Positions 12,477-29,530 of a stretch of DNA of 57,897 nt are shown piece after piece. Origin of the DNA: a virus (Duplodnaviria > Caudoviricetes); the IMG/VR virus record IMGVR_UViG_3300007004_000001, positions 1 through 57,897 of that record. One strand, written 5' to 3'. The notes under the pieces were generated by a model. That model was not told the DNA's origin and did no database searches. It worked only from the letters and a program-made list of their open reading frames with translations. A program made the position numbers and the translations under genes. How positions within the stretch are numbered: position 1 is the stretch's first letter; each line of letters opens with the position of its first letter.

Positions 12477-12877
12477 GGCAGATCCTCCTGCTCCAGGTCG
12501 CGCAGGTCGTCCTCAGTGATGCCGCTTTGGCGCGGTGCCTCCAGCGCTGCGATCCGCCGCTCGCACTCGGCGAGGCGGGCGAACAGGCCGGGGCCGAGCG
12601 AGGCGGAGTTATCCAGCGTGGCGAGTACAGGCAGCGGCACCGCGCCGCTCGTCCGCTCGCAGTTGCACGCCGCGTCCTCGGTGGCCAGCGAGTCGCAGTC
12701 CGCGTCATGGCGAACGAGGCGCGCGTACAGCACCTCGTCGTCGACGCTGAACACCCGCGACGGGTCACGGTGAGGCGTCGCGTTCACGACGATCTGACCG
12801 AGGCGCAGGTCCGGGCAGTCCATCCAGTAGGCGCGCAGGCGGGCCAGGATGCGGTCGATGCGGGCGGGGTCTCTCAT
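12473..12877 (-). CDS. DUF1040/YihD-like N-terminal protein
   Basis: MRDPARIDRILARLRAYWMDCPDLRLGQIV...DDE pattern. Confidence 0.6.
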   Translation of the reverse strand: MRDPARIDRILARLRAYWMDCPDLRLGQIVVNATPHRDPSRVFSVDDEVLYARLVRHDADCDSLATEDAACNCERTSGAVPLPVLATLDNSASLGPGLFARLAECERRIAALEAPRQSGITEDDLRDLEQEDLP

Positions 12878-13092
12878 GGGTCCGTCCATGACTGCTCTGG
12901 CTTGCAGGTCGGACAGAGGCACGCCCCTGCGAAGGGGCACTCCTTAACCGGTCCCATGCGCGCCCATGTCTGGCACTCGCACTCGCCGACAACCCGGCCC
13001 GGTCCATTGTCGCAGTTCACGTGATGGTCGCGGATCGCTTTTGCGATCTCAGATGCACGACGCGCCACCTCGTCACGTTCCTGTTGCTCCAT
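12874..13092 (-). CDS. Cys-rich hypothetical protein
   Basis: First gene after attP. Confidence 0.45.
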   Translation of the reverse strand: MEQQERDEVARRASEIAKAIRDHHVNCDNGPGRVVGECECQTWARMGPVKECPFAGACLCPTCKPEQSWTDP

Positions 13093-13318
13093 TTGTTACT
13101 CCAGCTGCGGTTTATCCACACTCAGCGCGGCTCGCTCCGGAACGCCAAGCTGTTGCGATCGTTGGCCAACCCCTGAACATTCATGCGGCTGGCATAGGTC
13201 TGCAAAACCACCATTCGTCAGTTCAATCCTGACCGGCACCTCTCCGACGGAGAATCGCCCCTCCGACCGTGGTCACGAACCGGCCGCCGCGCACCTGAAA
13301 AACTCCATTATTGCTCCG
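13082..13318 (+). other. attP: tRNA-Cys(GCA) 3'-half core (13197-13241) with candidate arm-type sites
   Basis: GGT-CTGCAAA-ACC anticodon arm, GTCAG-TTCAATC-CTGAC T-arm, CGGCACC acceptor strand and U discriminator; no 5' half. Tandem TGTTGCTCCA/TGTTACTCCA and AAAAACTCCA/TATTGCTCCG flank the core. Directly downstream of int. Confidence 0.85.
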
Positions 13319-14387
13319 ACTGATCAGGGTTCTTCTCGACGAGCAATCGCATGGCCTTGGACGCCTCGGCTTTCTCGTCGCGCCCGATCAGGCTGTAGTG
13401 GGCTGTCATCGCCGAGGTCGCGTGCCCGGTGATCGCCCGCAGCACTTCGCCGGTCGTGACCTGGCGCGCGAGGTTGTTGAACGTCCGGCGAAGCCCGTGG
13501 GTCGTGACGCGCGGGACGCCGGCGGCCTTGCACGCCTTGTCCAGCACGGCGCGCAGCGGCGTTCCACGGTGCGCGGTTCCGCGGCGCGTGGGAAACACCA
13601 GACCACTCGCACGGGGCCGGAGCAGGGCAAGGACGGGCGGCGGCAGCGGGACGGTGCGCCAGCTCTTGCGCGTCTTCGGCGTCACCTCGGCGCCTCGCCA
13701 GTTGCCGCGCCGGACGCTGATCTCCATCGTTCGCGTGTTGAAGTCCTCCCAAAAGAGTCCGCTCGCCTCGCCCCAGCGCAGCCCCGTGTAGCCGATGAGC
13801 ATCACGATCGCGCGCCACTGCTTCGGGATCGCCGCTAGCAAGTCGCGCAGCTGCTCGGCGTTGAGCAGGTTCGGGTTCGCCTCGGTGTAGCCGACCGGCG
13901 TCGGGGCCGTGACGCGCTCGCAGAAGTCCCGATCTGTCAGGCCGTCCGCCTTCGCATCCTTCGCGATCACACGCAGCAGGCGCAGCATGTTCAGCACCGT
14001 GTTGTCCGCGAGGCCGGACGCGATGCGCTCGGCGATGAACCGGCGCACGTCGCTTGGCTGGATCGCGTCGACGAAGTGATCACCGAGAGCGGGCAGGATG
14101 TGCTGGTCGAGGTTGTTGGCGTACTTGTACACGACGCTTGGCTTGAGGCGGCTTTCCCGCTCGGCGATCCAGCCACTCACGTATCGTCTCAGTCGGACGC
14201 GGGCCTTCTTCGGACCGACGTCGCGCAACTCGGCGTGGAGCTCGGCGCGCCGCGCCTCCGCCGCCGCCTTCGTCCCCGTCACCGTCTCCATCGCTCCGAT
14301 CTTCGCCCCGGTCTTCGGGTCCCGCGCCTGGACGCGGATCCTCCACTTGCTCGGACCGAGCTTCTCCAGACCGCGCACGAACGCCAT
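13308..14387 (-). CDS. int: Tyrosine recombinase/integrase
   Basis: YTGLRWGEA (R), TPKT (K), HGLRR (HxxR) and ITGH...MTAHY (H,Y). N-terminal arm-binding and core-binding regions. ATG at 14387 after GGAG. Confidence 0.95.
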   Translation of the reverse strand: MAFVRGLEKLGPSKWRIRVQARDPKTGAKIGAMETVTGTKAAAEARRAELHAELRDVGPKKARVRLRRYVSGWIAERESRLKPSVVYKYANNLDQHILPALGDHFVDAIQPSDVRRFIAERIASGLADNTVLNMLRLLRVIAKDAKADGLTDRDFCERVTAPTPVGYTEANPNLLNAEQLRDLLAAIPKQWRAIVMLIGYTGLRWGEASGLFWEDFNTRTMEISVRRGNWRGAEVTPKTRKSWRTVPLPPPVLALLRPRASGLVFPTRRGTAHRGTPLRAVLDKACKAAGVPRVTTHGLRRTFNNLARQVTTGEVLRAITGHATSAMTAHYSLIGRDEKAEASKAMRLLVEKNPDQSEQ

Positions 14388-14574
14388 GCCGTTTCTCCAG
14401 TCGGGCGCGCACGAACGCATCAAGCGTCGCGCGCAGGAACACGTAGGACCCTCGCGGGCCGACACCGTCGGGGACCAGCTCGCCGCGGTAGACGCAGTGC
14501 CGGATCGCGCCGGGCGTGTGAAAGCCGAGGTAGGTCATTGCCTCGGCGGTGTTGAGGTACGGCCGTTCGCTCAT
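14080..14574 (-). CDS. xis: Excisionase-like HTH protein (the first ~64 aa; the tail overlaps int out of frame)
   Basis: YLNTAEAMTYLG...AIRHCVYRGEL...YVFLRATLDAFV; immediately upstream of int. Confidence 0.8.
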   Translation of the reverse strand: MSERPYLNTAEAMTYLGFHTPGAIRHCVYRGELVPDGVGPRGSYVFLRATLDAFVRARLEKRHGVRARSGEARSEQVEDPRPGAGPEDRGEDRSDGDGDGDEGGGGGAARRAPRRVARRRSEEGPRPTETIREWLDRRAGKPPQAKRRVQVRQQPRPAHPARSR

Positions 14575-14583
14575 CTCCGCCCC
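14570..14583. repeat. 14-bp direct repeat, downstream boundary of the type IV-B module
   Basis: CTCATCTCCGCCCC, identical to 18423-18436. Confidence 0.85.
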
Positions 14584-15302
14584 TCAATCGCCGCCATCTC
14601 GGCGCGGTAGTATCGGCGCTCCCATTCGGCGCGACCGTGTCCTCGCCCACGCTTCCCGCCGAGCGTCGACACCCGCAGGTCGTTGCGGTCAAGCCGCCCC
14701 TCCATCGTGCAGGCGTACGCGGGATGAACGGGCAGGTCGTTCCCGGCGAGGTACGCGAAGACGTGCTCGGTCTTCCACCACCCGATCGGCCGGCACGTGT
14801 TACGCGAGACGAGGCTGTTCACCCGCATCGTCATCCGTCGCGTCGAACTCTCCTCGGCGCGGACACCCGACGCGTAGCGGTGGCCGAACTCGCGGGACGC
14901 TTCCTCGAAGGCCTCCTGCGCTCCGTCGTGACCGAGATGCCGATTCCAGTCGTCGTCGGGCAGCACGGCAGGTCGCTCGGCGTATGCGCACGGGTAGCGC
15001 GCGAGGAACGCGTCGCGCACCAGCGCGCAGTCGGGGTTCTCGATCGAGCCGGCCGGGAACCACACCACTGGCAGATCCGCTCCGATCATCTCGGTGGCGA
15101 GGTGCGCCACGACGACGCTGTCCTTGCCCCACGACACGCTCACGTAGCCCGCACCGCCAGCAAAGAACTCGTCGAGCGCGCGGCGCGCATCGTCGATCAG
15201 CCGGCGCATCGCTGCCGTCGCGTAGATCTGCCGATCGAACCCCTCCAGCATCGACCAGTGCCGGAGATCCCCCGGCGTGTGCCGTCGCGACGCGATCAGC
15301 AC
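14571..15302 (-). CDS. cysH: CysH-like PAPS-reductase-family protein (type IV-B accessory)
   Basis: PP-loop SVSWGKDS, GVRAEESSTR and RPIGWWKTEHVFAYL..NDLPVHPAY. GTG overlaps the csf3 stop. Confidence 0.85.
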   Translation of the reverse strand: MLIASRRHTPGDLRHWSMLEGFDRQIYATAAMRRLIDDARRALDEFFAGGAGYVSVSWGKDSVVVAHLATEMIGADLPVVWFPAGSIENPDCALVRDAFLARYPCAYAERPAVLPDDDWNRHLGHDGAQEAFEEASREFGHRYASGVRAEESSTRRMTMRVNSLVSRNTCRPIGWWKTEHVFAYLAGNDLPVHPAYACTMEGRLDRNDLRVSTLGGKRGRGHGRAEWERRYYRAEMAAIEGRR

Positions 15303-16075
15303 TACGGCTCCACGCACGCCGCGAGCCGCGACGCGTGGTAGTAGGGCGGCCGCAGCCCGCCGTACCCCGGTGCGCCGTCGACGGCACCGAGCGGAATACG
15401 TCGCCGCAGTCGCCCCTCCTCGTCGACCACGGAGCGGTCCACGTCGCACTGCTCGACGCGCCACTCGCGCACCGTCCCCGATCCGATGTTGCGCTTCTTC
15501 CCGATCGCCGGCACGTGCGCCGTGAGCAGCGCCTGGATCGCGTCCGGATCGCCGTGCGCGTACCAGACCACCTCACGCGCCAGCACCGTCGGGATCGACA
15601 GGTCGTAGGCCTTCGTCGCGCCCGCGCCGGTGTTGAGCGTCTTGTCCTTGGCGTACCGCACCATCTTCGCCGCCTCCGGCTTCTTCCGCACCTCGAGCAC
15701 GCCTCGTGCTGCCCAGACGGAATCGTCCGCCGCCGACGCGCACCAGCCCCAAAGCTGCGGGTGCGTCCCGTCGCGCTGGCCCGGCGCCGCACCGTCCCGA
15801 TCGCGGCGTGCCTTTCGCAGCAACCTCTCATCGCTCACCTCGCCGACGCGATCGCACCACCACGTGGAGAGCGGCATGCGCAGATCGGTCGGCCACTCTG
15901 CCGTCTCGATCGGCGGGATGGTCAGCCGCGTGCGCATGTCCAGGTCGTGGAACGCCGCGTAGGCGATCGGCCCGTCGATGTGCAGCAGGTCGCCGAGGTA
16001 CGCGATCGGCTCGTCCATCACCGCGATGATGCGCATCGGGACGTAGGCGCCGCGCGATCGCATCGTCCAGGTCAC
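15302..16075 (-). CDS. csf3: Type IV CRISPR Csf3 (Cas5-like RAMP)
   Basis: LHIDGPIAYA, VVWYAHGDPDAIQALL, G-rich loop IGKKRNIGSGTVREWRVE and terminal RPPYY. GTG coupled to the csf2 stop. Confidence 0.85.
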   Translation of the reverse strand: MTWTMRSRGAYVPMRIIAVMDEPIAYLGDLLHIDGPIAYAAFHDLDMRTRLTIPPIETAEWPTDLRMPLSTWWCDRVGEVSDERLLRKARRDRDGAAPGQRDGTHPQLWGWCASAADDSVWAARGVLEVRKKPEAAKMVRYAKDKTLNTGAGATKAYDLSIPTVLAREVVWYAHGDPDAIQALLTAHVPAIGKKRNIGSGTVREWRVEQCDVDRSVVDEEGRLRRRIPLGAVDGAPGYGGLRPPYYHASRLAACVEP

Positions 16076-17055
16076 GCCACCGCCTCGCGGATTGCGGCGA
16101 GGATCTCCGACTTGCGCTCGCGCAGGTGCGCCACGTACTTCGCGCCACGGTCGCCGCCGACGCCGGACACCGCGAGCGCCTCGGTCGGCTCGTACTGCGG
16201 CGTCGTGACCCGCAGCGCACTGCGCAGCTCGACGGCGATCGCCCCGTAGCCGACGCTGTTCTTCGCGCCGATGTGCGTTGTCAGCTCGCCGTCGCGCTGC
16301 CCGCCAGCGGAGTAGTGGAACGCGCTGGCCAGCGCCGCCATCTCCAGATCGGTGATGTCGCCGAACCAGACCGTGCCCCAGAGCTTCGCCCCGGCCGCGA
16401 TGCACTGGTAGTCGTAGATCATCTGCGCGCTGTCACCGCGATCGCTCGGCGTCGACTCGGCGAGCGCCTTCTTCTTCTTGCCCTCGACCTTCGCGGTCGC
16501 CTCGCCGGACAGCAGGCGCACCCCGACGGCCTTGCTCGCCATGTCGTGCCGCGTCCCGAAGTCCTCGACGCGCAGCGCACCGGCCCGCAACTGGAGATGC
16601 GGCGAGTCACGCAGATCGTCGGGTAAGCGCCAGCTGTTCTCCTTGCAGATCAGGTGCAGATGCGAGACGCGGAGCTTACTCTCCGTCATCGCGTTGCCTG
16701 CCGAGTATCCGCACAGCGAGAGCGCCGGAAACAGCTGCTCGAGTTGCCTCGCCGCGCCGAGATCGATCGCCGCGCCGCTCTTGCTCAGATGCCCGCCGCT
16801 GAACAGCAGGTCGACCTCAGCCTTGCTCAGCGATCCGTCCTCGACGCCGAGCGCGTCTAGCGCGTAGCTCACCGCCGACGCGCGCAGCTTGTGCTTGACG
16901 CTGTTCCCCGAGATGAACGGAACGCGCCCGACGCTGCCGTCATCCAGCACCACCGGTTGCATCCTCAGCAGCTGGGTGTTCCCGCTCGTCCCCGCGCCAT
17001 GGAGGATCGGCTCCAACGCCGTCGCCCTGATCTCGATCTTGCCCGTGGTTCTCAT
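16072..17055 (-). CDS. csf2: Type IV CRISPR Csf2 (Cas7-like backbone RAMP)
   Basis: ALEPILHG, VPFISGNSVKHKLR, LLFSGG, FPALSLCG, QMIYDYQCIAAG and G-loop IGAKNSVGYG. Confidence 0.9.
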   Translation of the reverse strand: MRTTGKIEIRATALEPILHGAGTSGNTQLLRMQPVVLDDGSVGRVPFISGNSVKHKLRASAVSYALDALGVEDGSLSKAEVDLLFSGGHLSKSGAAIDLGAARQLEQLFPALSLCGYSAGNAMTESKLRVSHLHLICKENSWRLPDDLRDSPHLQLRAGALRVEDFGTRHDMASKAVGVRLLSGEATAKVEGKKKKALAESTPSDRGDSAQMIYDYQCIAAGAKLWGTVWFGDITDLEMAALASAFHYSAGGQRDGELTTHIGAKNSVGYGAIAVELRSALRVTTPQYEPTEALAVSGVGGDRGAKYVAHLRERKSEILAAIREAVA

Positions 17056-17338
17056 GGTTCTTCCTTTTCAGTTCCAGGTGGTGCTCGCAGAGCGTGTTCG
17101 TCGCGACGCGCGGGTTGTTGCATCTCCGGCACAGGCCGGCGCTCCATCGCTTCCGTTGGTACTTCTTCACCGTCGCTGTTCGCTGCGCGATGCACTCTTC
17201 GCAGCGTCGGCGCCCCGGCTTCGGCGGCTGGTCACACGACAGGTTGCCGATACATCCGCCGGCATCCGCCTTGACGCGCTTCGCCGCGGCGTATCGCGCG
17301 TTACCTGCCGCGACCAGGTGCTTCTTCCGCCGCTTCAC
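16940..17338 (-). CDS. Basic Zn-finger repeat protein inside the csf operon
   Basis: Two G-x-C..C..P...CxxC/H units; resembles 29132-29530. Confidence 0.6.
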   Translation of the reverse strand: MKRRKKHLVAAGNARYAAAKRVKADAGGCIGNLSCDQPPKPGRRRCEECIAQRTATVKKYQRKRWSAGLCRRCNNPRVATNTLCEHHLELKRKNHENHGQDRDQGDGVGADPPWRGDEREHPAAEDATGGAG

Positions 17339-17703
17339 CCGCGCGCCTCGTACTCGGCGCGCTGCTCGGCGCGGCGTCCTTGCGCTATCGCGACGACGTA
17401 GAGCGCCTGCGTCTCGCAGAGGTGACGGAACCGCTCGAAGTCACCGCTCGCCGTCAACGTCTCGGCCAGCGAAGAGATCTCCTTGCTGGTGCTCTCCGCT
17501 GTCGCGTCGATCTGGAGCTTGCGCCCCATCACCGCGACGAGCTGGGCGAACGAGTCCGCCGTCGCTGCCGCGGTTTCGAGCGCGCTTCGGGCCCGCGTCC
17601 ACCAGTCGATCGGGCGGATCTTGTCCGTCGACGCCGACCGCATCATCGCCAGCACGAGCTGGATCCCGAGCTCCATCCTGCTCTCGTCCGTCTCTTCCCC
17701 CAT
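17335..17703 (-). CDS. Cas11-like small alpha-helical subunit
   Basis: 122 aa, all-helical appearance, located between csf1 and csf2 as in type IV-B loci; SD GGAGG. Confidence 0.65.
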   Translation of the reverse strand: MGEETDESRMELGIQLVLAMMRSASTDKIRPIDWWTRARSALETAAATADSFAQLVAVMGRKLQIDATAESTSKEISSLAETLTASGDFERFRHLCETQALYVVAIAQGRRAEQRAEYEARG

Positions 17704-18427
17704 CGGTCACCTCCGTCTCGGTCTTGCGCGCCAGGAACAGCGCGAGGTTGAACAGCGGGCTGCCTCGGTCGCGGCGCAGTGCCGCGTCGCCGGTCCGCCA
17801 CACGTCGAGTCCGATCTTGATCAGCCGCCCAGGGTTCGGCCCGTCTACGATGTCCTGCTTGCTGAACCCGGCGTCCATCAGCGTGCCGATCGCTCCTCGC
17901 ACGCGCCGGTACTCCCCCGGCGTCGCGCGAACCGTCGTGCGCTCGTGCCGCACCGACCACACCGCGCTGCCGAGGTTGACCTCCGCAAACGGCAGAGTGT
18001 GGATCTGCCCGCCCTCGGCGATCGACATAAGCCACCGTCCGCCCGGTGGGTTCGCCAGCACCTCGTCGAACGTGCGCGGGCCGGCCTTGCTGCTGTGCAA
18101 GTGGATGCGCGGCCCGAGGTTCGGCGCCGACGGGTGGTTGTCCGGCCACGCGGACGGAGGCTGCGCAGCCCAGATGATCGACCATAGGCGCAGCGTGTCC
18201 GGCGGCCTACCGGTCATCGCCCACGCGCACGCGACGCAGAGCAGCGGCGAGGACGGCATGCTAGCCTGGTCCTGGTCGGTGAACGTGTCGGAGATGACCG
18301 CCGCTTGCGAGCAGCACGGGCCGGCGATCGTGTCGGCGCACCAGTAGCAGCGGCCCTCGCCATCGATGATCGGGCGGCGCGGATCGGGACGGCCGGCTGC
18401 GGCCCAGAGGATTGGCGGGGCTCTCAT
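17441..18427 (-). CDS. csf1: Type IV CRISPR Csf1 (Cas8-like large subunit)
   Basis: CYWC...ISDTFTD...PSSPLLCVAC Zn-finger, then LANPP..W..IA..GQIH. The last ~87 aa overlap the cas11-like gene. Confidence 0.8.
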   Translation of the reverse strand: MRAPPILWAAAGRPDPRRPIIDGEGRCYWCADTIAGPCCSQAAVISDTFTDQDQASMPSSPLLCVACAWAMTGRPPDTLRLWSIIWAAQPPSAWPDNHPSAPNLGPRIHLHSSKAGPRTFDEVLANPPGGRWLMSIAEGGQIHTLPFAEVNLGSAVWSVRHERTTVRATPGEYRRVRGAIGTLMDAGFSKQDIVDGPNPGRLIKIGLDVWRTGDAALRRDRGSPLFNLALFLARKTETEVTDGGRDGREQDGARDPARAGDDAVGVDGQDPPDRLVDAGPKRARNRGSDGGLVRPARRGDGAQAPDRRDSGEHQQGDLFAGRDVDGER

Positions 18428-18436
18428 CTCCGCCCC
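18423..18436. repeat. 14-bp direct repeat, upstream boundary of the type IV-B module
   Basis: Identical to 14570-14583. Confidence 0.85.
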
Positions 18437-18729
18437 GCCACCTCGTCGCGTAGAGCGGCGAGCTGCTGGCGCAGATCGTCGACGTCGGCACGTAGGCGAG
18501 CCACTTCGGCATCGGTCGTTCCTGCGACGGCCAGGAGTTCGTCGGGCCGAATGGAGAGCGCGGCGGCGACGGCACCGATGCGCTCGGCGCTGAGCGGCGG
18601 CCGCTCGCCTCGCTCAACGTCGCTCAGGTACGTGATCGAGACGCCGATTCGTTCTGCGACGGCGCGGAGCGTGAATCCGCGGCCGACGCGCGCTTTGCGG
18701 AGAGCCTCTCCGAAGCGGTTCGCGCTCAC
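18424..18729 (-). CDS. XRE-family HTH regulator with a C-terminal coiled coil
   Basis: FGEALRKARVGRGFTLRAVAERIGVSITYLSDVERG. Confidence 0.85.
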   Translation of the reverse strand: MSANRFGEALRKARVGRGFTLRAVAERIGVSITYLSDVERGERPPLSAERIGAVAAALSIRPDELLAVAGTTDAEVARLRADVDDLRQQLAALRDEVAGRR

Positions 18730-18962
18730 GGCACCCCCTCCGGCCGGTACGCCGCGGCGAGGTTGCGGGCGATGCTGGCCCCGCGAGCGGCGCGGATGAT
18801 TAGGTAGGGCCGCTCCACGAGATCGTCGCCGGCCGCATGGTTGATGCGGCGCGCACAGGTCGCGCAGTACGGCATCCTGGTCTGCGTGTGGATCCACGCG
18901 GCGTCGTGTCGGATCTTGATCGAGCACGCTCGGCGAGAACAGGTCTGATCCGTGCTGCTCAC
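18726..18962 (-). CDS. Small Cys-containing hypothetical protein
   Basis: YCATCARRIN; coupled. Confidence 0.5.
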   Translation of the reverse strand: MSSTDQTCSRRACSIKIRHDAAWIHTQTRMPYCATCARRINHAAGDDLVERPYLIIRAARGASIARNLAAAYRPEGVP

Positions 18963-19113
18963 GTCCCCTCCAGGGCGAACGCGGCACGCACCGCATCCAC
19001 AAGCTTGCGCTGTTGTTCCGGATCGATGCGATCGCTGCGCATGTAGTCGCTCCATGCAGCGTTCGCCGAGTCGACCTCGCACCCCTCGCGGTCGCACCTG
19101 GGGCAGCGGCCGC

Positions 19114-19302
19114 TCATCGCTTTCTCCGCGGCAGGTGATCGCCCGCCTTGATTCCAGCGATCGCTTCGTCGATCTCATCCGCGGCGCCGCGCCAAAACTC
19201 GCTCCTCGTATCACTCTCTGCCCGTCTCGCGGCGCGAGCGCGACTGCGCAGGTACTGCAGCACCCGCCGCTCGTCGGGGCTGAGCTTGGTGAGACGCGGC
19301 AT
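19114..19302 (-). CDS. Hypothetical protein
   Basis: SD GGAGG; coupled. Confidence 0.5.
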   Translation of the reverse strand: MPRLTKLSPDERRVLQYLRSRARAARRAESDTRSEFWRGAADEIDEAIAGIKAGDHLPRRKR

Positions 19303-19853
19303 CAGGGCACCTCCGCTCGGCACGCCTCGATCAGCGCCGGCAGGATCAGATCGCGCAGCACGACTGCCGAGCACGTCGGCGCCATACGGATCGACTCGTA
19401 GACGTCGCTGCCGAGGACGTCGGTGACGTAGTCCGGCATCTCGCTCAGCCAGACGTCGACGCTGTCGCTCAGGTAGTCGTCACCCGAGTCCTTGACCCAG
19501 TCGTAGGCGCGTCGAGCCTCTGTCTTCGACAGGCCGTCGCGGCGCTGGCGTCGGATCGTCTCGAGGCAGTGGCGGATGGTCCCGTCGACGTCGACTTGCT
19601 CGTCCTGCTTCGTCGTGAGTTTCCCGAACAGGTAGTGCACGCCGTCGCGGTCGCCGAGGAACTGCGTGAGCGTCTTTCCCCCGCCGAGGTGGTCGATGTT
19701 CCAGCGATGCGCCCAGCTGCCAGCGTCCGACTGAACGGACAGCTCCCCGGTGGCGTCGTTGACGGTGCAGATCGCCCACGAGCAGCGGTGGTCGTCGGAG
19801 CGAAAGCGGTAGGCCGTCGCCGTACTCTTGCTGGTGAGGCGCATCGCCATCAC
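19302..19853 (-). CDS. Conserved phage hypothetical protein
   Basis: GELSVQSDAGSWAHRW...YLFGKL pattern. Confidence 0.55.
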   Translation of the reverse strand: MMAMRLTSKSTATAYRFRSDDHRCSWAICTVNDATGELSVQSDAGSWAHRWNIDHLGGGKTLTQFLGDRDGVHYLFGKLTTKQDEQVDVDGTIRHCLETIRRQRRDGLSKTEARRAYDWVKDSGDDYLSDSVDVWLSEMPDYVTDVLGSDVYESIRMAPTCSAVVLRDLILPALIEACRAEVP

Positions 19854-19950
19854 GCCCACCATCCCCGCGTCGCCGCCGCGACGACCGCGAACGGCAGCGC
19901 CACGACGGAGAGCAGCGCGAAGAGGACGCCGAAGATTCCGATCAGGACCA

Positions 19951-20328
19951 TCACTGGTGCTGTTCCTCGTCGACCGCCCAGTAGCACTCTGCGGCGACCG
20001 AGAACTTCTTCCTCCACGCCTCGAAGATCTTGTCTAGCGACGACTGCAACTCGGCCTTGGCGCCAACCGAGATGCTGTCGATGAGGCTCTCGGTCGTCTC
20101 CTCGTCGTATTCGGCGGCGTTCGCAAAATCCTCGATCAGTCCGTCGACGTCTGGTGTGGGCAGGGTTACCTGCTCTTTGCGCAGCATCGCCGTCTTGAAC
20201 GGCGCACCGGCGAAGCACTCGCGACCAGCTCTGATCGCCTCTCGCCTGGTGTCATACGCGGCATCGCACGAGCACCAGAAGTCGTAGTCTGAGAACGATG
20301 TGCTGTGAACGTACTTCCCGTCCCTCAT
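19951..20328 (-). CDS. Acidic hypothetical protein
   Basis: TGATG coupling. Confidence 0.55.
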   Translation of the reverse strand: MRDGKYVHSTSFSDYDFWCSCDAAYDTRREAIRAGRECFAGAPFKTAMLRKEQVTLPTPDVDGLIEDFANAAEYDEETTESLIDSISVGAKAELQSSLDKIFEAWRKKFSVAAECYWAVDEEQHQ

Positions 20329-20615
20329 CAGTTCCACGTCCTTTCCCGCAGCTGTTGCTGCGCCCACCACGCGCGAAACCCGGCCTTCTGCTGCTCGTCG
20401 AAGTCCGCCTCCAGCACCGCGAACGGCGCATCCATCCGCCTCGTCCAGCGCATTGGCGGCGCGTGCGGTCGTTGCAGCAGCACGGCGAACAGCCCGCCGC
20501 AGCGGACACACCGCGCCTGCCCGATCCAGTCGGCGCGGCGGCGGACGATCAGGTCGTGCCCGTGCCGCGAGCAGGTGAACAGGCGGCGCAGGGCGTGGCG
20601 GAGGCGGCGGATCAT
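20328..20615 (-). CDS. Hypothetical protein
   Basis: SD AAGGAG; coupled. Confidence 0.5.
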   Translation of the reverse strand: MIRRLRHALRRLFTCSRHGHDLIVRRRADWIGQARCVRCGGLFAVLLQRPHAPPMRWTRRMDAPFAVLEADFDEQQKAGFRAWWAQQQLRERTWN

Positions 20616-21331: not shown

Positions 21332-21961
21332 CTAGAACATCTCCAGCTGTCGATCGACGAATCCGCTCAGGAAGCGCTGCAGGTTCTCCTCGGACCAGAG
21401 CGGCAAGCACGAGTCGATCGAGTCGGCCCCGATGCGTCGTGCCCATCGCACGCGGTCCGGTGTACCGACGCGGCCGATGTGGCAGGGCATGCCGAGCGCA
21501 TGCGCGGTCGTAACCCACGCGCCGCCGGTCGCGATCTTCCAGGGGAGTCCCCCGCCGACGAACAACCCGGCGAACCGATGCGCCACCGGCACGACGTCGC
21601 TCGCCACCATCCCGTCCTGGACCGCGAGGTAGTAGCGGAGGCCGGGGAACTCGGATCCATGCGAGTCGAGCCAGCGCAGGCTGAAGGCCAGCGAGTCGAG
21701 CCCAGTAGCTACTCGGTCGGGGCATACGCACCATGCCGGCTGGTCTGCCGAGGGCTGCGCCGCGGCCCAGGCGCACGCGGACAACCACTCCGCGGCGTCG
21801 AAGGCTCGACCGGCGTTCCAGTCGGAGAACGCGCCGTTGTCGAGAATCCACGGACGCCGGCGCGGCGGCCATTCGTTGCGTTGCGTGCACTCGCCGAATC
21901 CGAGCTCCGTGAGCCGGGCGATCAGCTTCCGGCTGCGCGTCTGTCCGATATAGACGCGCAC
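21332..21961 (-). CDS. TGT/DpdA-like transglycosylase-fold protein (candidate deazaguanine DNA modification)
   Basis: ILDNGAF (compare DSGGF/DSGAF), CPD, VQDG, FVGG, CHIGRV and GADSIDS motifs. Confidence 0.65.
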   Translation of the reverse strand: MRVYIGQTRSRKLIARLTELGFGECTQRNEWPPRRRPWILDNGAFSDWNAGRAFDAAEWLSACAWAAAQPSADQPAWCVCPDRVATGLDSLAFSLRWLDSHGSEFPGLRYYLAVQDGMVASDVVPVAHRFAGLFVGGGLPWKIATGGAWVTTAHALGMPCHIGRVGTPDRVRWARRIGADSIDSCLPLWSEENLQRFLSGFVDRQLEMF

Positions 21962-22530: not shown

Positions 22531-22802
22531 GGCGTCACCGCCAGCGCCGCCCTGATGTCGTCGCCCAGCGCGGACCTGCCGCTCTCCGTCGTCGACGCGT
22601 CCCACCGATCGACCACGACGAGGGCGCGGGCGAGGAGGGTGCGGAGGGCGGCGATCTGGTCAACGCGGTCGCTCCGGTCGGCGGCCCTGACCGGAAGCGG
22701 CTCGCATGGGCCCCACATCGGATGGATGTGATCTCCGTCGTGGCCCTCGTAGTAGCCACACCGCACGCCGTTGAGGTAGGCGCCGCACTGCTTGCCGCTC
22801 AC
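22527..22802 (-). CDS. Hypothetical protein
   Basis: C..GHDGDH motif; coupled. Confidence 0.5.
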   Translation of the reverse strand: MSGKQCGAYLNGVRCGYYEGHDGDHIHPMWGPCEPLPVRAADRSDRVDQIAALRTLLARALVVVDRWDASTTESGRSALGDDIRAALAVTP

Positions 22803-23908
22803 GCCGCCACCTCGCCGTCCGCGAGAGCCGCAGCCGGCACTTCCTCGACGGCCATCTTCGTCTTGCGCTCGCTGCCGCCCTCGTCGCGGATGAGCTTGTA
22901 CACGCGCTCCTTGGCGTCCTTCAGCTTGTCGCCCGGCTGCAGGTACTTGCGCACGATCGCGTCGATCTGCTTCTTACTCGCCTCGCGCGTCACCGCCTCG
23001 TCGGCGGCATCGCGGCCGTAAAGCTTGTTCACGACCTGCCAGGCGACGTCGCCGTCGAGGGACTCGTTGCCGAGCTTGCTGACCTCGGCGAGCATCATGC
23101 CGTTGCGCAGCGGGATCGGCTTCTGCGACGCGCGCGCCATCAGCGCGGCCTTCATCCGCCCGAGCAGCGCGGTGTACTGCGCGATGCGCTCCCACGCCGT
23201 GGCCGCGTCCTCGTCGGACAGGAACGACAGCTTGGCGAGCGTCGCCTCGGCCGTGCCGTCGACGAGGTGGCGGACCAGCGCAACCTTGCTCGGGCACGCA
23301 TGCGCCGCCGGGCAGTACTTGCAGTGGCGCCCCTCGGCGACGTCCGGCATCAGACCGGCGGCAACCTTGGCGCGCTCACGCTCGATGCGGCGCTCGACGG
23401 CGCGGACCTCCTCCAGTTCAGCGGCGAGCTCCAGCTCGTCGAAGTGGGCCTCGTCGAAGTACGGCAGGGCGTTCTCGCGAACGTACGCGATGATGACGGT
23501 CGCCTTGTCGCGGCCAAAGCGCTCGGCGGCCATAGCGGCGTACGACTTGGTCTGGCGGTTCGTCGCCGCGGCGTCGACTCGCTCGAAGCCCTTGAAGTCC
23601 ACGACCAGGACCCGGTCGAACAGCACTGCCACGACGTCGGCGTGACCGGACAGCACGACGCGCCCCTCGTTCTCGTAGGACAGCGCGACCTCGGCCCCGG
23701 CTCCATCGGGGACGCGCTCCAGGATCGCGATCGCCGCCTCGTAGTACTCGGCCGGGACCTTCGACGCGTCTCGACTGGTCACGAGCGCAGCGAGCCACGC
23801 GTGGCGATCAGTGCCGCCCTCAGACCACGCCGACGACGTATTCGCCTGCGGCAGGGCGGCGCTACCAGGACAGGCAGCGAGCCTAGGCAGACTGGACGAG
23901 CGCATCAT
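22799..23908 (-). CDS. PD-(D/E)XK exonuclease (DUF2800/Cas4-like fold), partner of Bet
   Basis: SSL...ACP, GTDRH, E..SGHAD..VVDFK, QTKSYA and HCKYCPAAHAC. Confidence 0.8.
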   Translation of the reverse strand: MMRSSSLPRLAACPGSAALPQANTSSAWSEGGTDRHAWLAALVTSRDASKVPAEYYEAAIAILERVPDGAGAEVALSYENEGRVVLSGHADVVAVLFDRVLVVDFKGFERVDAAATNRQTKSYAAMAAERFGRDKATVIIAYVRENALPYFDEAHFDELELAAELEEVRAVERRIERERAKVAAGLMPDVAEGRHCKYCPAAHACPSKVALVRHLVDGTAEATLAKLSFLSDEDAATAWERIAQYTALLGRMKAALMARASQKPIPLRNGMMLAEVSKLGNESLDGDVAWQVVNKLYGRDAADEAVTREASKKQIDAIVRKYLQPGDKLKDAKERVYKLIRDEGGSERKTKMAVEEVPAAALADGEVAA

Positions 23909-24780
23909 CACGCCACGACCTCGACGTCGTCGTCCTTCGCGGCCTGCGCGAGCAGATCCTGGTGCGCCTTGTACGCGGCGTGGACCTTGGCGCGCTCGGC
24001 CGTGCCCTTCGCGAAGCCGTTGCAGCGCGGCGCGAGCTTCTTCAGCGCGTCGAGCGACTGCGCCGCCTCGATGTCCACGACGAGGCGATCGACCTCCTTG
24101 GACATGTCGATCGGCTCGGCCTTCGCCGGGGTCGCCGACTCGACCGCGCGGCGCTCGCGAACGACATCGACGTCGATGACGTTGTCGGCCTGGCCCATCT
24201 CCTCCGGCGTGTACGCGCCAGCCAGCTCGGCAGGGAACGCCTTGCGCAGCGCCAGCGACTCGGCGCACTTCGCCAGCATCGTGTCCGGCAGGCGCTTCCA
24301 CATGTTGTTCGGGGCGCCGTCCTTCGTCGTCTGGACGTAGCTCTCGTACGTGGCGACGCCGGTGAACGGGCGGCTCGCGCCCTTGCGGTAGACCATCACC
24401 TTGGCCGCAGCGGGCGGCTGCTCGTGGAGCCACACGTCGACCCAGACGCCGTCGGCGCCGCACCAGTACGGGCCGTCTTGTCCGTCGATCTCGCCGGTGC
24501 GGGCGGCGACGAGCCGGAACCCGTCGATGCTCACCTGGATGGACATCACTTCGCGGTTCGCCTTCGAGTCCCACCGCTTGACGGCGAAGATTTGACGCGC
24601 AAACGGATCGAGACCCATCCGGTTGGCGGTCGCGACGAACATGGCGAGCTCGTCGTCGGTGGTGCCCTTCGCGATCGTGCGCTTGAGCAGGTCGATCTGC
24701 TCGCCGGCGAGGTGGTTCTGGACGGGCGCGATCGTGCGGGACTGGATCGCGAGTGCGTGACCGTTGCTTCCGTTGCTCAT
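23908..24780 (-). CDS. bet: Phage single-strand annealing recombinase Bet/RecT
   Basis: GTTDDEL..F....[21 protein letters not shown] and W...[18 protein letters not shown]. Confidence 0.92.
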
Positions 24781-28766: not shown

Positions 28767-29135
28767 GTGAGGCAACAGTCGCTCTTCGGGCCGTCCGGTC
28801 AGTCGGACGACGTCCACGCGGCGCTGCGGCAGATCGTCGACGTGATCGGCCTGAAGGAAGCCGCGTTCGTCTGCAACGCGCAGCCGTCGGCGCTGAGCGA
28901 CGCGCTCCGTGGCGAGGGGCAGAAGTACGTTCGCGTGGCGTGGCTGATCGCTCTGATGACCAAGGCGCCGCCAGCGCTCGGCCTTGAGCTGCGCCGGCTG
29001 ATCTGCGGCCAAGGCTACGGCGTCGTCGAGATCGCCCCGCTGAAGCCCGAAGAGGAGTTGCGGCTGCTGCGCGACCGCGTCCGCAACGAGTTCGGTGCGG
29101 CCGGTGAGCGGCTCATTGCGGAGGTGCGGAGATGA
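28767..29135 (+). CDS. CII-like regulatory protein
   Basis: Position after cro; HTH-like IGLKEAAF....PSALSDAL. Confidence 0.55.
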   Translation: MRQQSLFGPSGQSDDVHAALRQIVDVIGLKEAAFVCNAQPSALSDALRGEGQKYVRVAWLIALMTKAPPALGLELRRLICGQGYGVVEIAPLKPEEELRLLRDRVRNEFGAAGERLIAEVRR

Positions 29136-29530
29136 CCAAGCCCGACTATCTGCGCAGTCTGCGCGCAAAAGCGAAGGCCGAAGGTCGCTGCTCGACGTGT
29201 CGGGCGCGACCGGCAAAGCCTGGGTGTCTGACCTGCCAGCACTGCCTCGATCTGTCTCGCGAGTACGCGAACGCCCATCGCGCGACGGCCGAGGGTCGCG
29301 GCATGTGCAGCGACTGCACCCGCCCTGCCTGCGACGGGCTACGTCACTGCGCCGTGTGCCGGGAGCGTATGTCGGCGAAGGCTCGCGCGAGAACGGCTGC
29401 GCGCGACGCTGCTGGTCTGTGCCGCCAGTGCGGCGCCCCTGAGCGAGAGACGCTCACGCTCTGCGCATCGTGCGCTGCTGCGCTGCGCTCGCGGGCACGC
29501 GCTCGCTACGCCGCTAGGAGAGCAGCATGA
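29132..29530 (+). CDS. Zn-finger repeat protein (three GxCxxC-P-CxxC units)
   Basis: Repeats visible in the translation. Confidence 0.65.
   Translation: MTKPDYLRSLRAKAKAEGRCSTCRARPAKPGCLTCQHCLDLSREYANAHRATAEGRGMCSDCTRPACDGLRHCAVCRERMSAKARARTAARDAAGLCRQCGAPERETLTLCASCAAALRSRARARYAARRAA

What the first reader, a model, noticed from the sequence alone, without database searches (positions are those of the whole stretch)
14571..18427. Phage-encoded, array-less type IV-B-like CRISPR effector (csf1-cas11-ZnF-csf2-csf3-cysH) in the early operon
Seen: six overlapping or coupled minus-strand genes carrying a Csf1 Zn-finger, Cas7- and Cas5-type RAMP G-loops, and PAPS-reductase PP-loop motifs. I found no CRISPR array, cas6, cas1/2, dinG or cas3 anywhere in the circular genome. 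Established: type IV-B loci carry cysH-like genes, usually lack arrays, occur on mobile elements, and their function and RNA guide are unresolved. Inference: here the module is an early phage function downstream of PL with no promoter of its own that I can see. It may sequester host crRNAs (anti-CRISPR), silence competing elements, or steer a CysH-type nucleotide-modifying enzyme with an RNA.
Basis: partly seen in the sequence, partly recalled or inferred. Interest (0 to 1): 0.92.

Follow-up and report, generated by a model that had tools for sequence, protein, structure and literature searches.

The report
Phage type IV-B cassette, clamp-docking Csf1
A complete soil phage carries a genuine CRISPR-array-less type IV-B Cas cassette, a kind already known from mobile elements, but its large subunit has a floppy tail written over the next gene that ends in a docking peptide for the bacterial DNA sliding clamp, which gives a testable clue to what this enigmatic CRISPR type does.

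Summary
Window 14571-18427 (minus strand) encodes csf1, cas11, a Zn-finger ORF, csf2, csf3 and a cysH-like PP-loop gene. The genome is a complete 57.9-kb tailed phage. I found no CRISPR array, Cas1, Cas2, Cas6, DinG or Cas3 in it.

The cassette is chained by overlapping stop and start codons to an XRE regulator upstream and to xis-int downstream. An exact 14-bp direct repeat brackets it.

Type IV-B on plasmids, prophages and phages is already in print, so the cassette is a new member of a known kind. The Zn-finger ORF occurs in 0 of 30 related loci.

That tail carries QGDLF, a beta-clamp-binding-type motif. 12 of 13 tail-bearing loci and 34 of 59 long Csf1 representatives carry Q..LF, against 0.39 expected. 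A structure model docks the tail into DnaN: score 0.63, best control 0.00.

My literature searches found no paper on this. This scan had already noted the same tail on other DNA.

Likely mechanism: a clamp-tethered Csf ribonucleoprotein acts with CysH at replicating DNA. This is inferred, not shown.

The parts
18424..18729 (-). XRE/Cro-type HTH regulator (about 101 aa). Its stop codon overlaps the csf1 ATG (ATGA).
   Evidence: Pfam HTH_3 6e-11. PHROG transcriptional regulator families. Junction read. The start at 18729 was chosen from codon-position GC and is not certain.
18423..18436 (.). Copy 1 of the exact 14-bp direct repeat, at the HTH-stop/csf1-start junction.
   Evidence: the repeat finder family D2. 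Sequence read.
17441..18427 (-). csf1 (type IV large subunit, 328 aa). Csf1 homology with the 4-Cys Zn finger covers residues 1-240 (17705-18427). The 88-residue tail (17441-17704) is written in the +1 frame over cas11.
   Evidence: PADLOC Csf1_0_IV 1e-26. Invariant C27, C30, C64 and C67. Third-position GC falls to 0.40-0.63 in the tail. Tails compared.
17471..17485 (-). Codons for Q315-G-D-L-F319, the clamp-binding-type pentapeptide in the Csf1 tail. It lies 9 residues from the C-terminus.
   Evidence: Sequence. The motif appears in 0.0008 of 5000 synonymous recodings of cas11. These residues make the model's contacts with DnaN.
17335..17703 (-). cas11-like small subunit (122 aa). It has its own GGAGG ribosome-binding site inside csf1.
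   Evidence: PADLOC type IV Cas11 2.3e-16. Third-position GC 0.90. Sequence.
16940..17338 (-). Zn-finger ORF (132 aa). It is GTGA-coupled to the cas11 stop and reads 38 codons into csf2. It occurs in this phage lineage only.
   Evidence: Third-position GC 0.80-0.87 before the csf2 start. No family above threshold. Absent from 30 of 30 related loci. Paralog at 29132-29530, E 5e-6. A contig of run X2 spans cas11, this ORF and csf2.
16072..17055 (-). csf2 (type IV Cas7 backbone, 327 aa).
   Evidence: PADLOC type IV Cas7 2.4e-71. Pfam DevR 26.7 bits, over its cut-off. PDB 7jhy Csf2 7.8e-10. 297 homologues at E <= 1e-5.
15302..16075 (-). csf3 (type IV Cas5). Its GTG start overlaps the csf2 stop.
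   Evidence: PADLOC Csf3_0_IV 1.3e-36. NCBIfam cas5_csf3 2.5e-14, below its cut-off. Coding signal.
14571..15302 (-). cysH-like PP-loop gene (CasCysH). Homology starts at the Met at 15251. Its stop overlaps the xis ATG.
   Evidence: Pfam PAPS_reduct 2.3e-8. Invariant SWGKDS and no invariant Cys. Model pLDDT 79.4; best fold match is PAPS reductase 6vpu, E 2.1e-6, TM 0.56-0.59.
14570..14583 (.). Copy 2 of the exact 14-bp direct repeat, at the cysH-stop/xis-start junction, 3853 bp from copy 1.
14080..14574 (-). xis-like ORF. The HTH_17 domain lies in the first 60 residues or so. The frame then runs on over int.
   Evidence: Pfam HTH_17 2.3e-4, 21.8 bits, below the cut-off of 27. 58% identical to the ORF before int in L007.
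13308..14387 (-). Tyrosine integrase.
   Evidence: Pfam Phage_integrase 1.3e-14 plus two N-terminal integrase domains.

Best explanation
**What it is (shown).** This is a genuine subtype IV-B CRISPR-Cas effector cassette: Csf1, Cas11, Csf2, Csf3 and a CysH-like PP-loop enzyme. It has no array, Cas6 or adaptation genes. It sits in a complete 57.9-kb temperate tailed phage from soil.

**How it got there (inferred).** It entered as a discrete 3.85-kb cassette between an XRE regulator gene and xis. An exact 14-bp repeat marks both joints.

**When it is made (inferred).** It is translationally chained into xis-int behind the RecT/exonuclease genes. It is therefore most likely made early in infection or at induction, together with the excision proteins, and not in the quiet lysogen.

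**How it most likely works (inferred).**
1. Csf2 and Cas11 form a filament on an RNA that the phage does not supply as a CRISPR array. The RNA would be a host crRNA or a non-CRISPR RNA.
2. Csf3 and Csf1 cap the filament.
3. The disordered Csf1 tail, overprinted on cas11, puts its QGDLF peptide into the peptide-binding cleft of the host sliding clamp DnaN.
4. This tethers the complex to replicating DNA, where single strands are exposed. That would explain why IV-B needs no helicase.
5. The CysH-like enzyme lacks the catalytic cysteine of real PAPS reductases. It would use ATP to adenylate or otherwise modify a nucleic acid held there.

**Odds.**
- Identity of the cassette: about 0.95.
- The tail is made and binds the clamp: about 0.6.
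- The full replication-coupled model: about 0.35-0.4.
For: **Identity.**
- Profile and structure matches.
- The order csf1-cas11-csf2-csf3-cysH is kept wherever the 30 related loci reach.
- Csf1 Zn-finger cysteines are invariant in 18 of 18 sequences.
- The CysH PP-loop is invariant in 11 of 11, with no invariant cysteine. Its fold matches PAPS reductase and adenylating PP-loop enzymes: TtuA, TilS, GMP synthetase, LarE.

**Phage.**
- Complete virus record with terminal repeats; the repeat is 123 bp.
- Terminase, portal and internal virion protein.
- RecT and exonuclease.
- Cro-like HTH, primase and DnaB.
- Integrase.

**Cassette insertion.**
- Exact 14-bp repeat at both stop/start joints, 3853 bp apart.
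- A 9-bp core of the repeat does not occur at the csf1 start of any of the 30 related loci.

**Csf1 tail.**
- 13 of 18 non-redundant loci have a csf1 frame that runs 75-90 codons into cas11.
- 12 of those 13 carry Q..LF. The 13th (L008) has QLQLDGL.
- 11 of 26 further Csf1 homologues carry Q..LF.
- Of 59 cluster representatives of 290 aa or more, 34 carry Q..LF in the tail. In 31 it lies within 12 residues of the C-terminus.
- Position 2 is L in 18 and position 3 is S or D in 24.
- Composition-shuffled tails give an expected 0.39. 0 of 120 Csf2 homologues carry it.
- Given the Cas11 protein and local codon usage, the motif arises in 0-1.1% of 5000 recodings per locus.
- It sits at two different Cas11 alignment positions. 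The Cas11 residues under it vary while Q-x-x-L-F stays.

**Match to the clamp-binding consensus.** The published consensus is Q-phi-x-L-F, specifically QL[S/D]LF. It is often C-terminal, and positions 1, 4 and 5 matter most (PMC4549789 and bioRxiv 10.64898/2026.05.27.728225, passages read).

**Docking model.**
- Window Csf1 residues 285-328 were folded with DnaN of the MAG that holds the nearest genomic relatives.
- Score 0.63 (runs 0.64, 0.63, 0.63); best of 3 controls 0.00.
- 51 of 78 solved complexes and 2 of 108 mismatched pairs reach that mark.
- Runs agree in at least 67% of contacts; partner pLDDT is at least 44.
- Contacts are Csf1 311-319 and 322 with DnaN 172, 174-177, 242-243, 247, 277-279, 317, 319, 343, 345, 359 and 361-365.
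Against: **The tail could be a by-product.**
- The open frame alone is not beyond chance in high-GC loci. P(open >= observed) is 0.21 for the window and 0.14-0.64 for other high-GC3 loci. Only L025 (0.018) and L027 (0.048) are low.
- The same genome has other long read-ins: the Zn-finger ORF into csf2, and xis into int.

**The motif is imperfect or absent in places.**
- The window's motif has Gly at position 2, where the consensus prefers an aliphatic residue. Motifs that depart from consensus bind weakly in the assays I read.
- 5 of 18 loci have no tail. 22 of 59 long representatives show neither the pentapeptide nor a hexapeptide-like motif.
- 82 of the 91 shorter representatives have no Q..LF anywhere. 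That set includes fragments.
- The tail is therefore not essential to every IV-B system.

**Limits of the docking model.**
- Many clamp-peptide complexes are solved, so the pass may come from memory. It shows likeness, not binding.
- The partner's fold is uncertain (pLDDT 45-50).
- The DnaN comes from a relative's presumed host, not a proven host of this phage.

**Missing data.**
- No transcript, protein or binding data exist.
- The promoter scan covers only sigma-70-type sites.
- The solved IV-B complex bound heterogeneous RNA, and its Csf1 was not resolved (PMC7937560, passages read).
- NCBIfam equivalog cut-offs for csf1, csf2 and csf3 are not reached.
Confidence: 0.55

Rival explanations
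1. **Guide-RNA sponge (anti-CRISPR).** The complex is made early and soaks up host crRNAs or other guide RNAs, so the host's own CRISPR effectors cannot be armed against the phage.
For: - There is no array or Cas6 in the phage.
- The operon position is early.
- The MAG that holds the nearest genomic relatives has two Cas1 genes, so such hosts make crRNAs.
- The solved IV-B complex loads heterogeneous RNA (PMC7937560, passages).
- The idea is in print (PMC7038947 and PMC8175902, passages).
Against: - It explains neither the near-invariant CysH partner nor a conserved clamp-docking tail.
- The authors who raised it judged so complex an Acr unlikely (PMC7038947, passage).
Confidence: 0.12
2. **Guide scavenger.** The complex loads crRNAs made by host or co-resident CRISPR systems. 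It then uses them to bind and silence competing plasmids or phages, as type IV-A does. The clamp tether could be part of this.
For: - All parts of a Cascade-like complex are present.
- 3 of the 30 related loci carry cas6 between csf3 and cysH: L022 at 2.1e-29, L031 at 2e-20, and L007 weakly at 2e-4. This points to a defined hairpin RNA substrate in some relatives.
- Type IV-A interferes with plasmid replication (PMC11551745, passage).
Against: - No array was found in the DNA held for L022 or L031, the two cas6-bearing loci scanned.
- The window has no cas6.
- Co-expressed crRNAs were not preferred by the solved IV-B complex (PMC7937560 and PMC8175902, passages).
Confidence: 0.18
3. **Prophage-borne defence or exclusion module.** The XRE gene and the cassette form a self-regulated unit. 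It is expressed from the lysogen and protects the host against other phages or plasmids.
For: - The cassette lies next to int and the presumed attP, a usual place for accessory cargo.
- It has a regulator directly upstream.
- It looks like an inserted cassette.
Against: - The cysH stop overlaps the xis start, and xis runs into int. Constitutive expression would also produce excisionase.
- No promoter-like site was found upstream (weak evidence).
Confidence: 0.12
4. **DNA-modification helper.** The complex and CysH work with a DNA base-exchange or modification enzyme of the phage to mark newly replicated DNA. The candidate is the TGT-fold-like gene at 21332-21961.
For: - Structural neighbours of the 209-aa protein include a tRNA-ribosyltransferase (TGT) cluster, TM 0.75 over 196 residues.
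- A clamp tether would suit an enzyme that follows the fork.
Against: - Pfam, NCBIfam and PDB sequence searches of the 209-aa protein were blank.
- The gene lies 2.6 kb from the cassette, with other genes between.
Confidence: 0.1
5. **Decaying or inert cargo.** The cassette has no present function.
For: - It has no array.
- It contains long read-through overlaps.
- A foreign Zn-finger ORF sits inside the cassette.
Against: - All five cas-type ORFs are intact with a strong coding signal.
- They are conserved at 40-74% identity in 30 loci and in hundreds of database proteins.
- Catalytic-type motifs are kept.
Confidence: 0.03

Closest known systems
Subtype IV-B CRISPR-Cas of the Mycobacterium sp. 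JS623 megaplasmid (Csf complex, PDB 7jhy; PMC7937560)
   Same: - Same gene set: Csf1, Cas11, Csf2, Csf3 and a cysH-like gene.
- No array and no helicase, and carried on a mobile element.
- Csf2 matches the solved chain at E 7.8e-10.
   Different: - The relationship is distant; only Csf2 residues 26-151 align.
- This cassette is on a temperate phage and is chained into xis-int.
- It has an extra Zn-finger ORF.
- Csf1 carries an overprinted tail with a clamp-binding-type motif. I could not check whether the JS623 Csf1 has such a tail.
Virus-borne type IV-B systems in print: prophages (PMC7038947), 'several lytic phages' and the archaeal Fuxivirus (PMC10848311, passages read)
   Same: - Type IV-B effector genes plus a CysH-like gene sit in a viral genome.
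- A counter-defence or inter-element role has been proposed.
   Different: - Fuxivirus has a mini-array of two repeats; this phage has none.
- The host here is probably a high-GC bacterium.
- The papers I read do not mention a clamp motif or a csf1/cas11 overlap.
Bacterial beta-clamp clients with terminal QL[S/D]LF-type motifs: polymerases, MutS, Hda and IS transposases (PMC4549789; bioRxiv 10.64898/2026.05.27.728225)
   Same: - A short Q-x-x-L-F peptide lies near the C-terminus of a flexible tail.
- The model places it in the same clamp cleft.
   Different: - The carrier is the large subunit of a CRISPR-type ribonucleoprotein.
- The window's peptide has Gly at position 2.
- Binding is predicted only.
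Type IV-A CRISPR-Cas (Csf complex plus the DinG helicase)
   Same: - Homologous Csf1, Csf2 and Csf3.
- Nuclease-free interference, including with plasmid replication (PMC11551745, passage).
   Different: - IV-A has an array, Cas6 and DinG.
- IV-A has no Cas11 gene and no CysH.
- The window has none of the first three.

Membership tests
Subtype IV-B CRISPR-Cas | Type IV Cas7 (Csf2) backbone protein | tested here: met
   PADLOC type IV Cas7 2.4e-71. 7jhy Csf2 7.8e-10.
Subtype IV-B CRISPR-Cas | Type IV Cas5 (Csf3) | tested here: met
   PADLOC Csf3_0_IV 1.3e-36.
Subtype IV-B CRISPR-Cas | Csf1 large subunit with a Zn finger | tested here: met
   PADLOC Csf1_0_IV 1e-26. Four cysteines invariant in 18 of 18 sequences.
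Subtype IV-B CRISPR-Cas | Cas11-like small subunit gene | tested here: met
   PADLOC type IV Cas11 2.3e-16.
Subtype IV-B CRISPR-Cas | Adjacent cysH-like gene with a PP-loop and without the catalytic cysteine | tested here: met
   PAPS_reduct 2.3e-8. SWGKDS invariant and no invariant Cys in 11 sequences. Fold match.
Subtype IV-B CRISPR-Cas | No DinG or RecD helicase in the locus | tested here: met
   No DEAD_2 match in the whole genome. RecD was not searched by profile. The six cassette ORFs leave no room for one.
Subtype IV-B CRISPR-Cas | No CRISPR array and no Cas6 | tested here: met
   Array. Cas6: Cas6_C; tblastn with relatives' Cas6. One search was uninformative. Single repeat units cannot be excluded.
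NCBIfam equivalogs cas8u_csf1, cas7_csf2 and cas5_csf3 | Score at or above the curated cut-off | tested here: not met
   26.8, 24.5 and 53.5 bits against cut-offs of 140, 130 and 140. The proteins are related but are not members of those narrow equivalog families.
Beta-clamp clients (clamp-binding motif) | Pentapeptide Q-phi-x-L-F | tested here: inconclusive
   The window has Q-G-D-L-F. Positions 1, 4 and 5 fit, and position 2 is Gly. Relatives have QLSLF, QLDLF and QRSLF.
Beta-clamp clients (clamp-binding motif) | The motif lies in a flexible terminal segment | tested here: met
   It lies 9 residues from the C-terminus in a G/R/D/P-rich tail. Partner pLDDT is 45-50.
Beta-clamp clients (clamp-binding motif) | The peptide occupies the hydrophobic cleft of DnaN | tested here: met
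   Met in a model only. Score 0.63 against 0.00 for the best of 3 controls. That the contacted DnaN residues form the canonical cleft is recalled from the E. coli structure, not computed here.
Beta-clamp clients (clamp-binding motif) | Measured binding to the clamp | not testable with these tools
   Needs a binding assay.
Overprinted (dual-coding) gene pair | The second frame is kept beyond chance | tested here: met
   The open frame alone gives P 0.21 in the window, which is not significant. The motif gives P 0.0008 in the window. It is present in 12 of 13 tail-bearing loci, at two Cas11 positions.
Anti-CRISPR (Acr) locus | Inhibits a CRISPR-Cas system | not testable with these tools
   No assay was possible. 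An HTH gene lies upstream, not downstream as is usual for aca genes.

The most novel reading that the evidence does not exclude
Type IV-B systems are replication-coupled effectors.

- The Csf1 tail docks the RNA-loaded Csf filament onto the sliding clamp.
- The filament therefore meets single-stranded DNA at forks without needing a helicase.
- The CysH-like PP-loop enzyme then adenylates or otherwise marks the nucleic acid held there.
- The phage would use this early in infection or at induction to stall or mark the replication of the host or of rival elements.

The overprinting of the tail on cas11 would then be a selected way to keep the tether and the small subunit linked.
Probability: 0.3. 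Interest if true: 0.9.

Novelty: new member of a known kind. Interest (0 to 1): 0.62.

Why it matters
Type IV-B is the one CRISPR-Cas subtype whose function is still unknown. A 2026 paper still says so (PMC13676074, passage).

This window adds three concrete handles:
- **A complete phage genome with timing constraints.** The cassette is chained to the excision genes. That limits when it is made and argues against a lysogen-expressed defence.
- **Exact cassette boundaries.** The 14-bp repeat marks both joints, which makes a clean deletion or transplant easy to design.
- **A conserved clamp-binding-type tail on Csf1, overprinted on cas11.** It points to the replisome as the place of action. It can be tested with a peptide and purified DnaN.

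If the tether is real, it would explain why IV-B has no helicase. It would also link type IV interference to DNA replication.

The cassette as such is ordinary for its kind, because type IV-B on prophages and phages is already described.

Tried and rejected
**Close relatives among named phages.** Megablast of the cassette against 50,697 phage records found nothing.

**Single-protein locus searches.**
- Csf2, integrase and the HTH protein found no relatives.
- Only the Csf2 alignment A1 worked.
- I therefore found no 'empty-site' relative with xre joined directly to xis. The insertion reading rests on the 14-bp repeat alone.

**Gene context of database homologues.** The many 50-60-kb contigs that hold Csf2 homologues could not be inspected.

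**Zn-finger ORF.**
- There was no Pfam, NCBIfam, PADLOC or PHROG family above threshold.
- The word-index search found no homologue.
- Atlas neighbours are small viral hypothetical proteins, some with double-zinc-ribbon families on 10-31% of members. These are leads only.
- The weak tblastn hits in L012-L014 (E 1.2e-4) lie over the cas11 end and csf2 start in another frame. I read them as a shadow of csf2, not as a gene.

**Frameshift fusion of Csf1 and Cas11.**
- The window has a run of five G at the junction.
- The junctions I read in the related loci, such as L003, show no such run. I dropped the idea.

ARAGORN and an Rfam E-value scan of 12900-13400 found nothing. A 45-nt half may be too short for either tool, so the question stays open.

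**Solved structures.** Sequence searches with the CysH-like protein, Csf1 and Cas11 gave no meaningful match. Csf3 gave only E 0.06-0.11 to type IV-A Csf3.

**PF09559 in the window.** The search was uninformative because no control genome rang.

**Expression.** No RNA holder was listed for the stretch.

**Read laying.**
- Run X1 may be the source sample and is not independent.
- Run X2 holds fragments of a close relative.
- Parts without cover (12903-14407) prove nothing.
- I do not use the apparent end of likeness near the cysH/xis joint as evidence.

**Clamp motif in tail-less loci.** None was found in any frame of the cas11 region or at the C-termini of neighbouring ORFs in L002, L004, L005, L006 and L026. 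The one exception is an unrelated 63-aa ORF in L005.

**Literature.**
- Searches found no paper that links Csf1 or type IV-B with the sliding clamp. The only 'clamp' hits in type IV papers were an author's name and DnaX.
- The library holds open-access papers and bioRxiv only.
- Supplementary files were not seen. Supplementary Data S1 of PMC7038947, which lists the IV-B loci and the 12 Cas6 cases, may bear on novelty.

Full report
**What the window is**

- The 57,897-base window is a whole virus record with direct terminal repeats and an estimated completeness of 100. My script found a 123-base terminal repeat. G+C is 0.64-0.71 throughout.
- The plus-strand genes include a large terminase, a portal, an internal virion protein and a DNA methyltransferase. 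They also include a Cro-like HTH, a primase-like protein and a DnaB-like helicase.
- A long minus-strand block runs from about 26.8 kb down to 13.3 kb. It holds a RecT-like annealing protein (E 1.1e-74) and an exonuclease.
- After several small genes, that block holds the stretch of the finding and ends in an integrase (Pfam 1.3e-14).
- This is a temperate tailed phage with a lambda-like layout.
- Megablast against 50,697 deposited phage records found no relative.

**The observation**

| Gene | Best evidence |
|---|---|
| csf1 | PADLOC Csf1 1e-26 |
| cas11 | PADLOC type IV Cas11 2.3e-16 |
| csf2 | PADLOC type IV Cas7 2.4e-71; Csf2 chain of the solved IV-B complex 7jhy at 7.8e-10 |
| csf3 | PADLOC Csf3 1.3e-36 |
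| cysH-like | Pfam PAPS_reduct 34.7 bits, over its cut-off of 22.5 |

- Against this, the NCBIfam equivalogs for csf1, csf2 and csf3 match far below their curated cut-offs. The proteins are relatives of those narrow families, not members.
- In alignments with related loci, the four Zn-finger cysteines of Csf1 are invariant in 18 of 18 sequences.
- The PP-loop S-W-G-K-D-S of the CysH-like protein is invariant in 11 of 11. No cysteine is invariant there.
- This agrees with the published view that CasCysH lacks the catalytic cysteine of true PAPS reductases (PMC8175902, section 7 read).
- An AlphaFold model of the CysH-like protein has mean pLDDT 79.4. It is closest to PAPS reductases (6vpu, E 2.1e-6, TM 0.56-0.59). 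Next come adenylating PP-loop enzymes such as TtuA, TilS, GMP synthetase and LarE.

**What is absent**

- No CRISPR-like array: no tandem repeat above 2.5 copies, only three two-copy direct repeats, and no Rfam family.
- Six-frame profile searches of the genome found no Cas1, Cas2, Cas6_C, DEAD_2 or Cas3_HD, while control genomes rang.
- A second Cas6 family search was uninformative. tblastn with Cas6 proteins of two related loci found nothing in the window.

**Anatomy of the operon**

Every junction is an overlap.

| Junction | Overlap |
|---|---|
| XRE-type HTH gene to csf1 | ATGA |
| cas11 to Zn-finger ORF | GTGA |
| csf2 to csf3 | GTGA |
| csf3 to cysH-like | one base |
| cysH-like to xis-like gene | ATGA |

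- The frame of the xis-like gene runs on over the integrase start.
- The scan for sigma-70-type promoters found none in 12800-20400. The two terminator-like sites are on the other strand.
- The cassette therefore looks co-translated with the excision genes. This argues for expression early in infection or at induction, rather than in the stable lysogen. That is inference: no RNA data exist, and the scan does not cover other promoter types.

**A cassette with marked borders**

I confirmed an exact 14-base direct repeat at 14570-14583 and 18423-18436.
- Each copy spans the last codons of the upstream gene, its stop, and the ATG of the next gene.
- Removing the DNA between the copies would join the HTH gene directly to xis.
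- The last residues of the window's CysH-like protein (G-R-R) equal those of the HTH protein. They differ from the CysH ends of relatives.
- A 9-base core of the repeat does not occur at the csf1 start of any of the 30 related loci.
- I read this as the scar of a cassette insertion by short-homology recombination. I found no empty-site relative to prove it.

**Relatives**

- Csf2 has 297 homologues at E <= 1e-5 among 8000 scored candidates.
- With an alignment of 31 of them I fetched 30 loci: 5 from viral contigs, 2 from one genome and 23 from metagenomes.
- The order csf1-cas11-csf2-csf3-cysH holds wherever the contigs reach.
- The two genomic loci lie in a MAG whose record title names a Kofleriaceae bacterium. 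L007 has xis and int after cysH, as here.
- That MAG has two Cas1 genes. The host is therefore probably a high-GC bacterium of that kind, with CRISPR systems of its own. This is a lead, not a proof.
- The source-like run is labelled soil metagenome.

**The Zn-finger ORF**

- It has a coding-like composition up to the csf2 start and two C-x2-C pairs.
- It matches no family.
- It lies between cas11 and csf2 in 0 of the 30 loci, where those genes abut or are 20-117 bases apart.
- A contig of run X2 spans cas11, the ORF and csf2 in a close relative.
- I take it as a lineage-specific small zinc-ribbon gene that landed in the cassette. Whether it joins the complex is open.

**The csf1 tail: what was seen**

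- Csf1 homology ends at residue 240, exactly where cas11 starts. There is no stop there. The frame runs 87 more codons over cas11, shifted by one base, and third-position G+C drops.
- The same holds in 13 of 18 non-redundant loci, whose G+C ranges from 0.60 to 0.73. Five loci have a short Csf1. I left out L013, L014, L018 and L021 as near-duplicates.
- The tails are rich in G, R, D and P, but 12 of the 13 contain Q-x-x-L-F. Examples are QGDLF in the window and QLSLF, QLDLF and QRSLF elsewhere. The 13th has QLQLDGL.
- Among 26 further Csf1 homologues, 11 carry Q..LF, 4 carry near variants, and 11 are short or cut.
- In an exhaustive search, 379 proteins matched at E <= 0.001. Of the best 150 cluster representatives, 59 are 290 residues or longer.
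- Of those 59, 34 carry Q..LF in the tail. In 31 it lies within 12 residues of the end. Position 2 is L in 18, and position 3 is S or D in 24. Three more carry a hexapeptide-like form.

**The csf1 tail: controls and the docking model**

| Control | Result |
|---|---|
| Composition-shuffled tails of the 59 long representatives | 0.39 expected with Q..LF |
| First 225 residues of the same 59 proteins | 2 of 59 |
| Csf2 homologues | 0 of 120 |

- Recoding cas11 synonymously 5000 times per locus shows that the open frame alone is unremarkable in high-GC loci. P is 0.21 in the window and 0.14-0.64 in the others. It is 0.018 and 0.048 in two lower-GC loci.
- The motif, in contrast, arises in only 0-1.1% of recodings and 0.08% for the window.
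- The motif sits at two different places of the Cas11 alignment. The Cas11 residues under it vary while the other frame keeps Q-x-x-L-F. It is therefore not a shadow of Cas11 conservation.
- The pattern equals the bacterial sliding-clamp-binding motif. That motif is Q-phi-x-L-F, consensus QL[S/D]LF, often C-terminal, with positions 1, 4 and 5 mattering most (passages of PMC4549789 and of bioRxiv 10.64898/2026.05.27.728225).
- I folded window Csf1 residues 285-328 with the DnaN of the Kofleriaceae MAG.
- The score was 0.63 (runs 0.64, 0.63, 0.63); the best of 3 controls was 0.00.
- 51 of 78 solved complexes and 2 of 108 mismatched pairs reach that mark.
- The runs agree in at least 67% of contacts, and partner pLDDT is at least 44.
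- The contacts are Csf1 311-319 and 322, which is the motif, with DnaN 172-177, 242-247, 317-319, 343-345 and 359-365.
- From memory of the E. coli clamp, those DnaN residues form the peptide-binding cleft.
- Clamp-peptide complexes are solved, so the pass shows likeness and may come from memory. It does not show binding.

**Caveats on the tail**

- The window's peptide has Gly at position 2.
- Other long read-ins occur in this genome.
- Five of 18 loci lack the tail and have no motif elsewhere in the cassette.
- There are no protein data.

**Relation to print and to this scan**

- Type IV on lytic phages and an archaeal virus is described as well (PMC10848311, passages).
- The function was still called unclear in 2026 (PMC13676074, passage).
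- My searches found no paper that links Csf1 or type IV-B to the clamp. This holds for open-access papers and bioRxiv only, and no supplements were seen.
- I reached the tail from the sequences. I then looked up earlier notes, which show that this scan had already reported the same Csf1 clamp tail on other phage DNA several times.
- This window is therefore a further, independent instance with a non-canonical QGDLF. It is not the first sighting.

**Accessory variation in relatives**

- cas6 (PF09559) lies between csf3 and cysH in L022 (2.1e-29) and L031 (2e-20), and weakly in L007. No array was found in the DNA held for L022 or L031, the two of these scanned.
- A protein of about 90 aa with a W-F-x-x-P-H-A-V motif recurs in 9 loci, including all five tail-less ones.
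- In L005 and L006, an 834-862-aa protein ends where csf1 starts; the L005 one matched DUF5906.

**Verdict**

- As a cassette it is a new member of a known kind, with a lineage-specific Zn-finger insertion.
- Its worth lies in three things: the complete phage context, the exact cassette borders, and the clamp-binding-type tail on Csf1. The tail makes the open question of type IV-B function testable.

Noticed in passing
window 29132-29530 (+): A 132-aa paralog of the cassette's Zn-finger ORF lies in the rightward operon, with three C-x2-C units. BLASTP E 5e-6. Sub-threshold double-zinc-ribbon hits.
   Followed up: partly
window 21332-21961 (-): A 209-aa protein of an uncharacterised phage family (phrog_15826, 2.3e-24). 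Its Atlas structure neighbours include a tRNA-ribosyltransferase (TGT) cluster at TM 0.75. Pfam, NCBIfam and PDB sequence searches were blank. It may be a DpdA-like base-exchange enzyme in the same operon as the cassette.
   Followed up: partly
window 14080-14574 and 16940-17055 (-): The xis-like ORF runs about 100 codons over int, and the Zn-finger ORF runs 38 codons over csf2. Long out-of-frame read-ins are common in this high-GC genome, so an open overlap alone is no sign of function.
   Followed up: partly
window 18726-18962 and 18959-19117 (-): Two small Cys-rich ORFs of 78 and 52 aa, each with C-x2-C pairs, lie directly upstream of the XRE gene. No family was found for either.
   Followed up: partly
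L022 1755-2576; L031 3531-4205; L007 about 1808-2272: cas6 (PF09559, E 2.1e-29 and 2e-20; weak tblastn 2e-4 in L007) lies between csf3 and cysH in three related loci. No array was found in the DNA held for L022 or L031; L007 was not scanned.
   Followed up: partly
L002 6221-6511 and matches in L003, L004, L005, L006, L018, L020, L021, L026: A protein of about 90 aa with a W-F-x-x-P-H-A-V motif travels with the cassette at varying positions. It is present in all five tail-less loci. No Pfam family.
   Followed up: partly
L005 1705-4293; L006 6373-8877: A protein of 834-862 aa ends exactly where csf1 starts in two tail-less loci. The L005 one matched Pfam DUF5906 at 1.8e-7. This may be another link to replication functions.
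   Followed up: no
L008 7174-8487; L004 6522-7367: A second, larger PAPS-reductase-like gene lies upstream of csf1 (PF01507 5.4e-7 in L008). The phage lineages thus carry two different PP-loop genes near the cassette.
   Followed up: no
window 16556-18106 (run X2): A run of another study holds a close relative of the cassette, including the Zn-finger ORF. Indels cluster at 17302-17345, the cas11 end and Zn-finger start. No indel is listed inside the csf1/cas11 overlap.
   Followed up: partly
window 22799-24780 (-): A RecT-like annealing protein and an exonuclease (a RecET-type pair) lie upstream in the same strand block.
   Followed up: no
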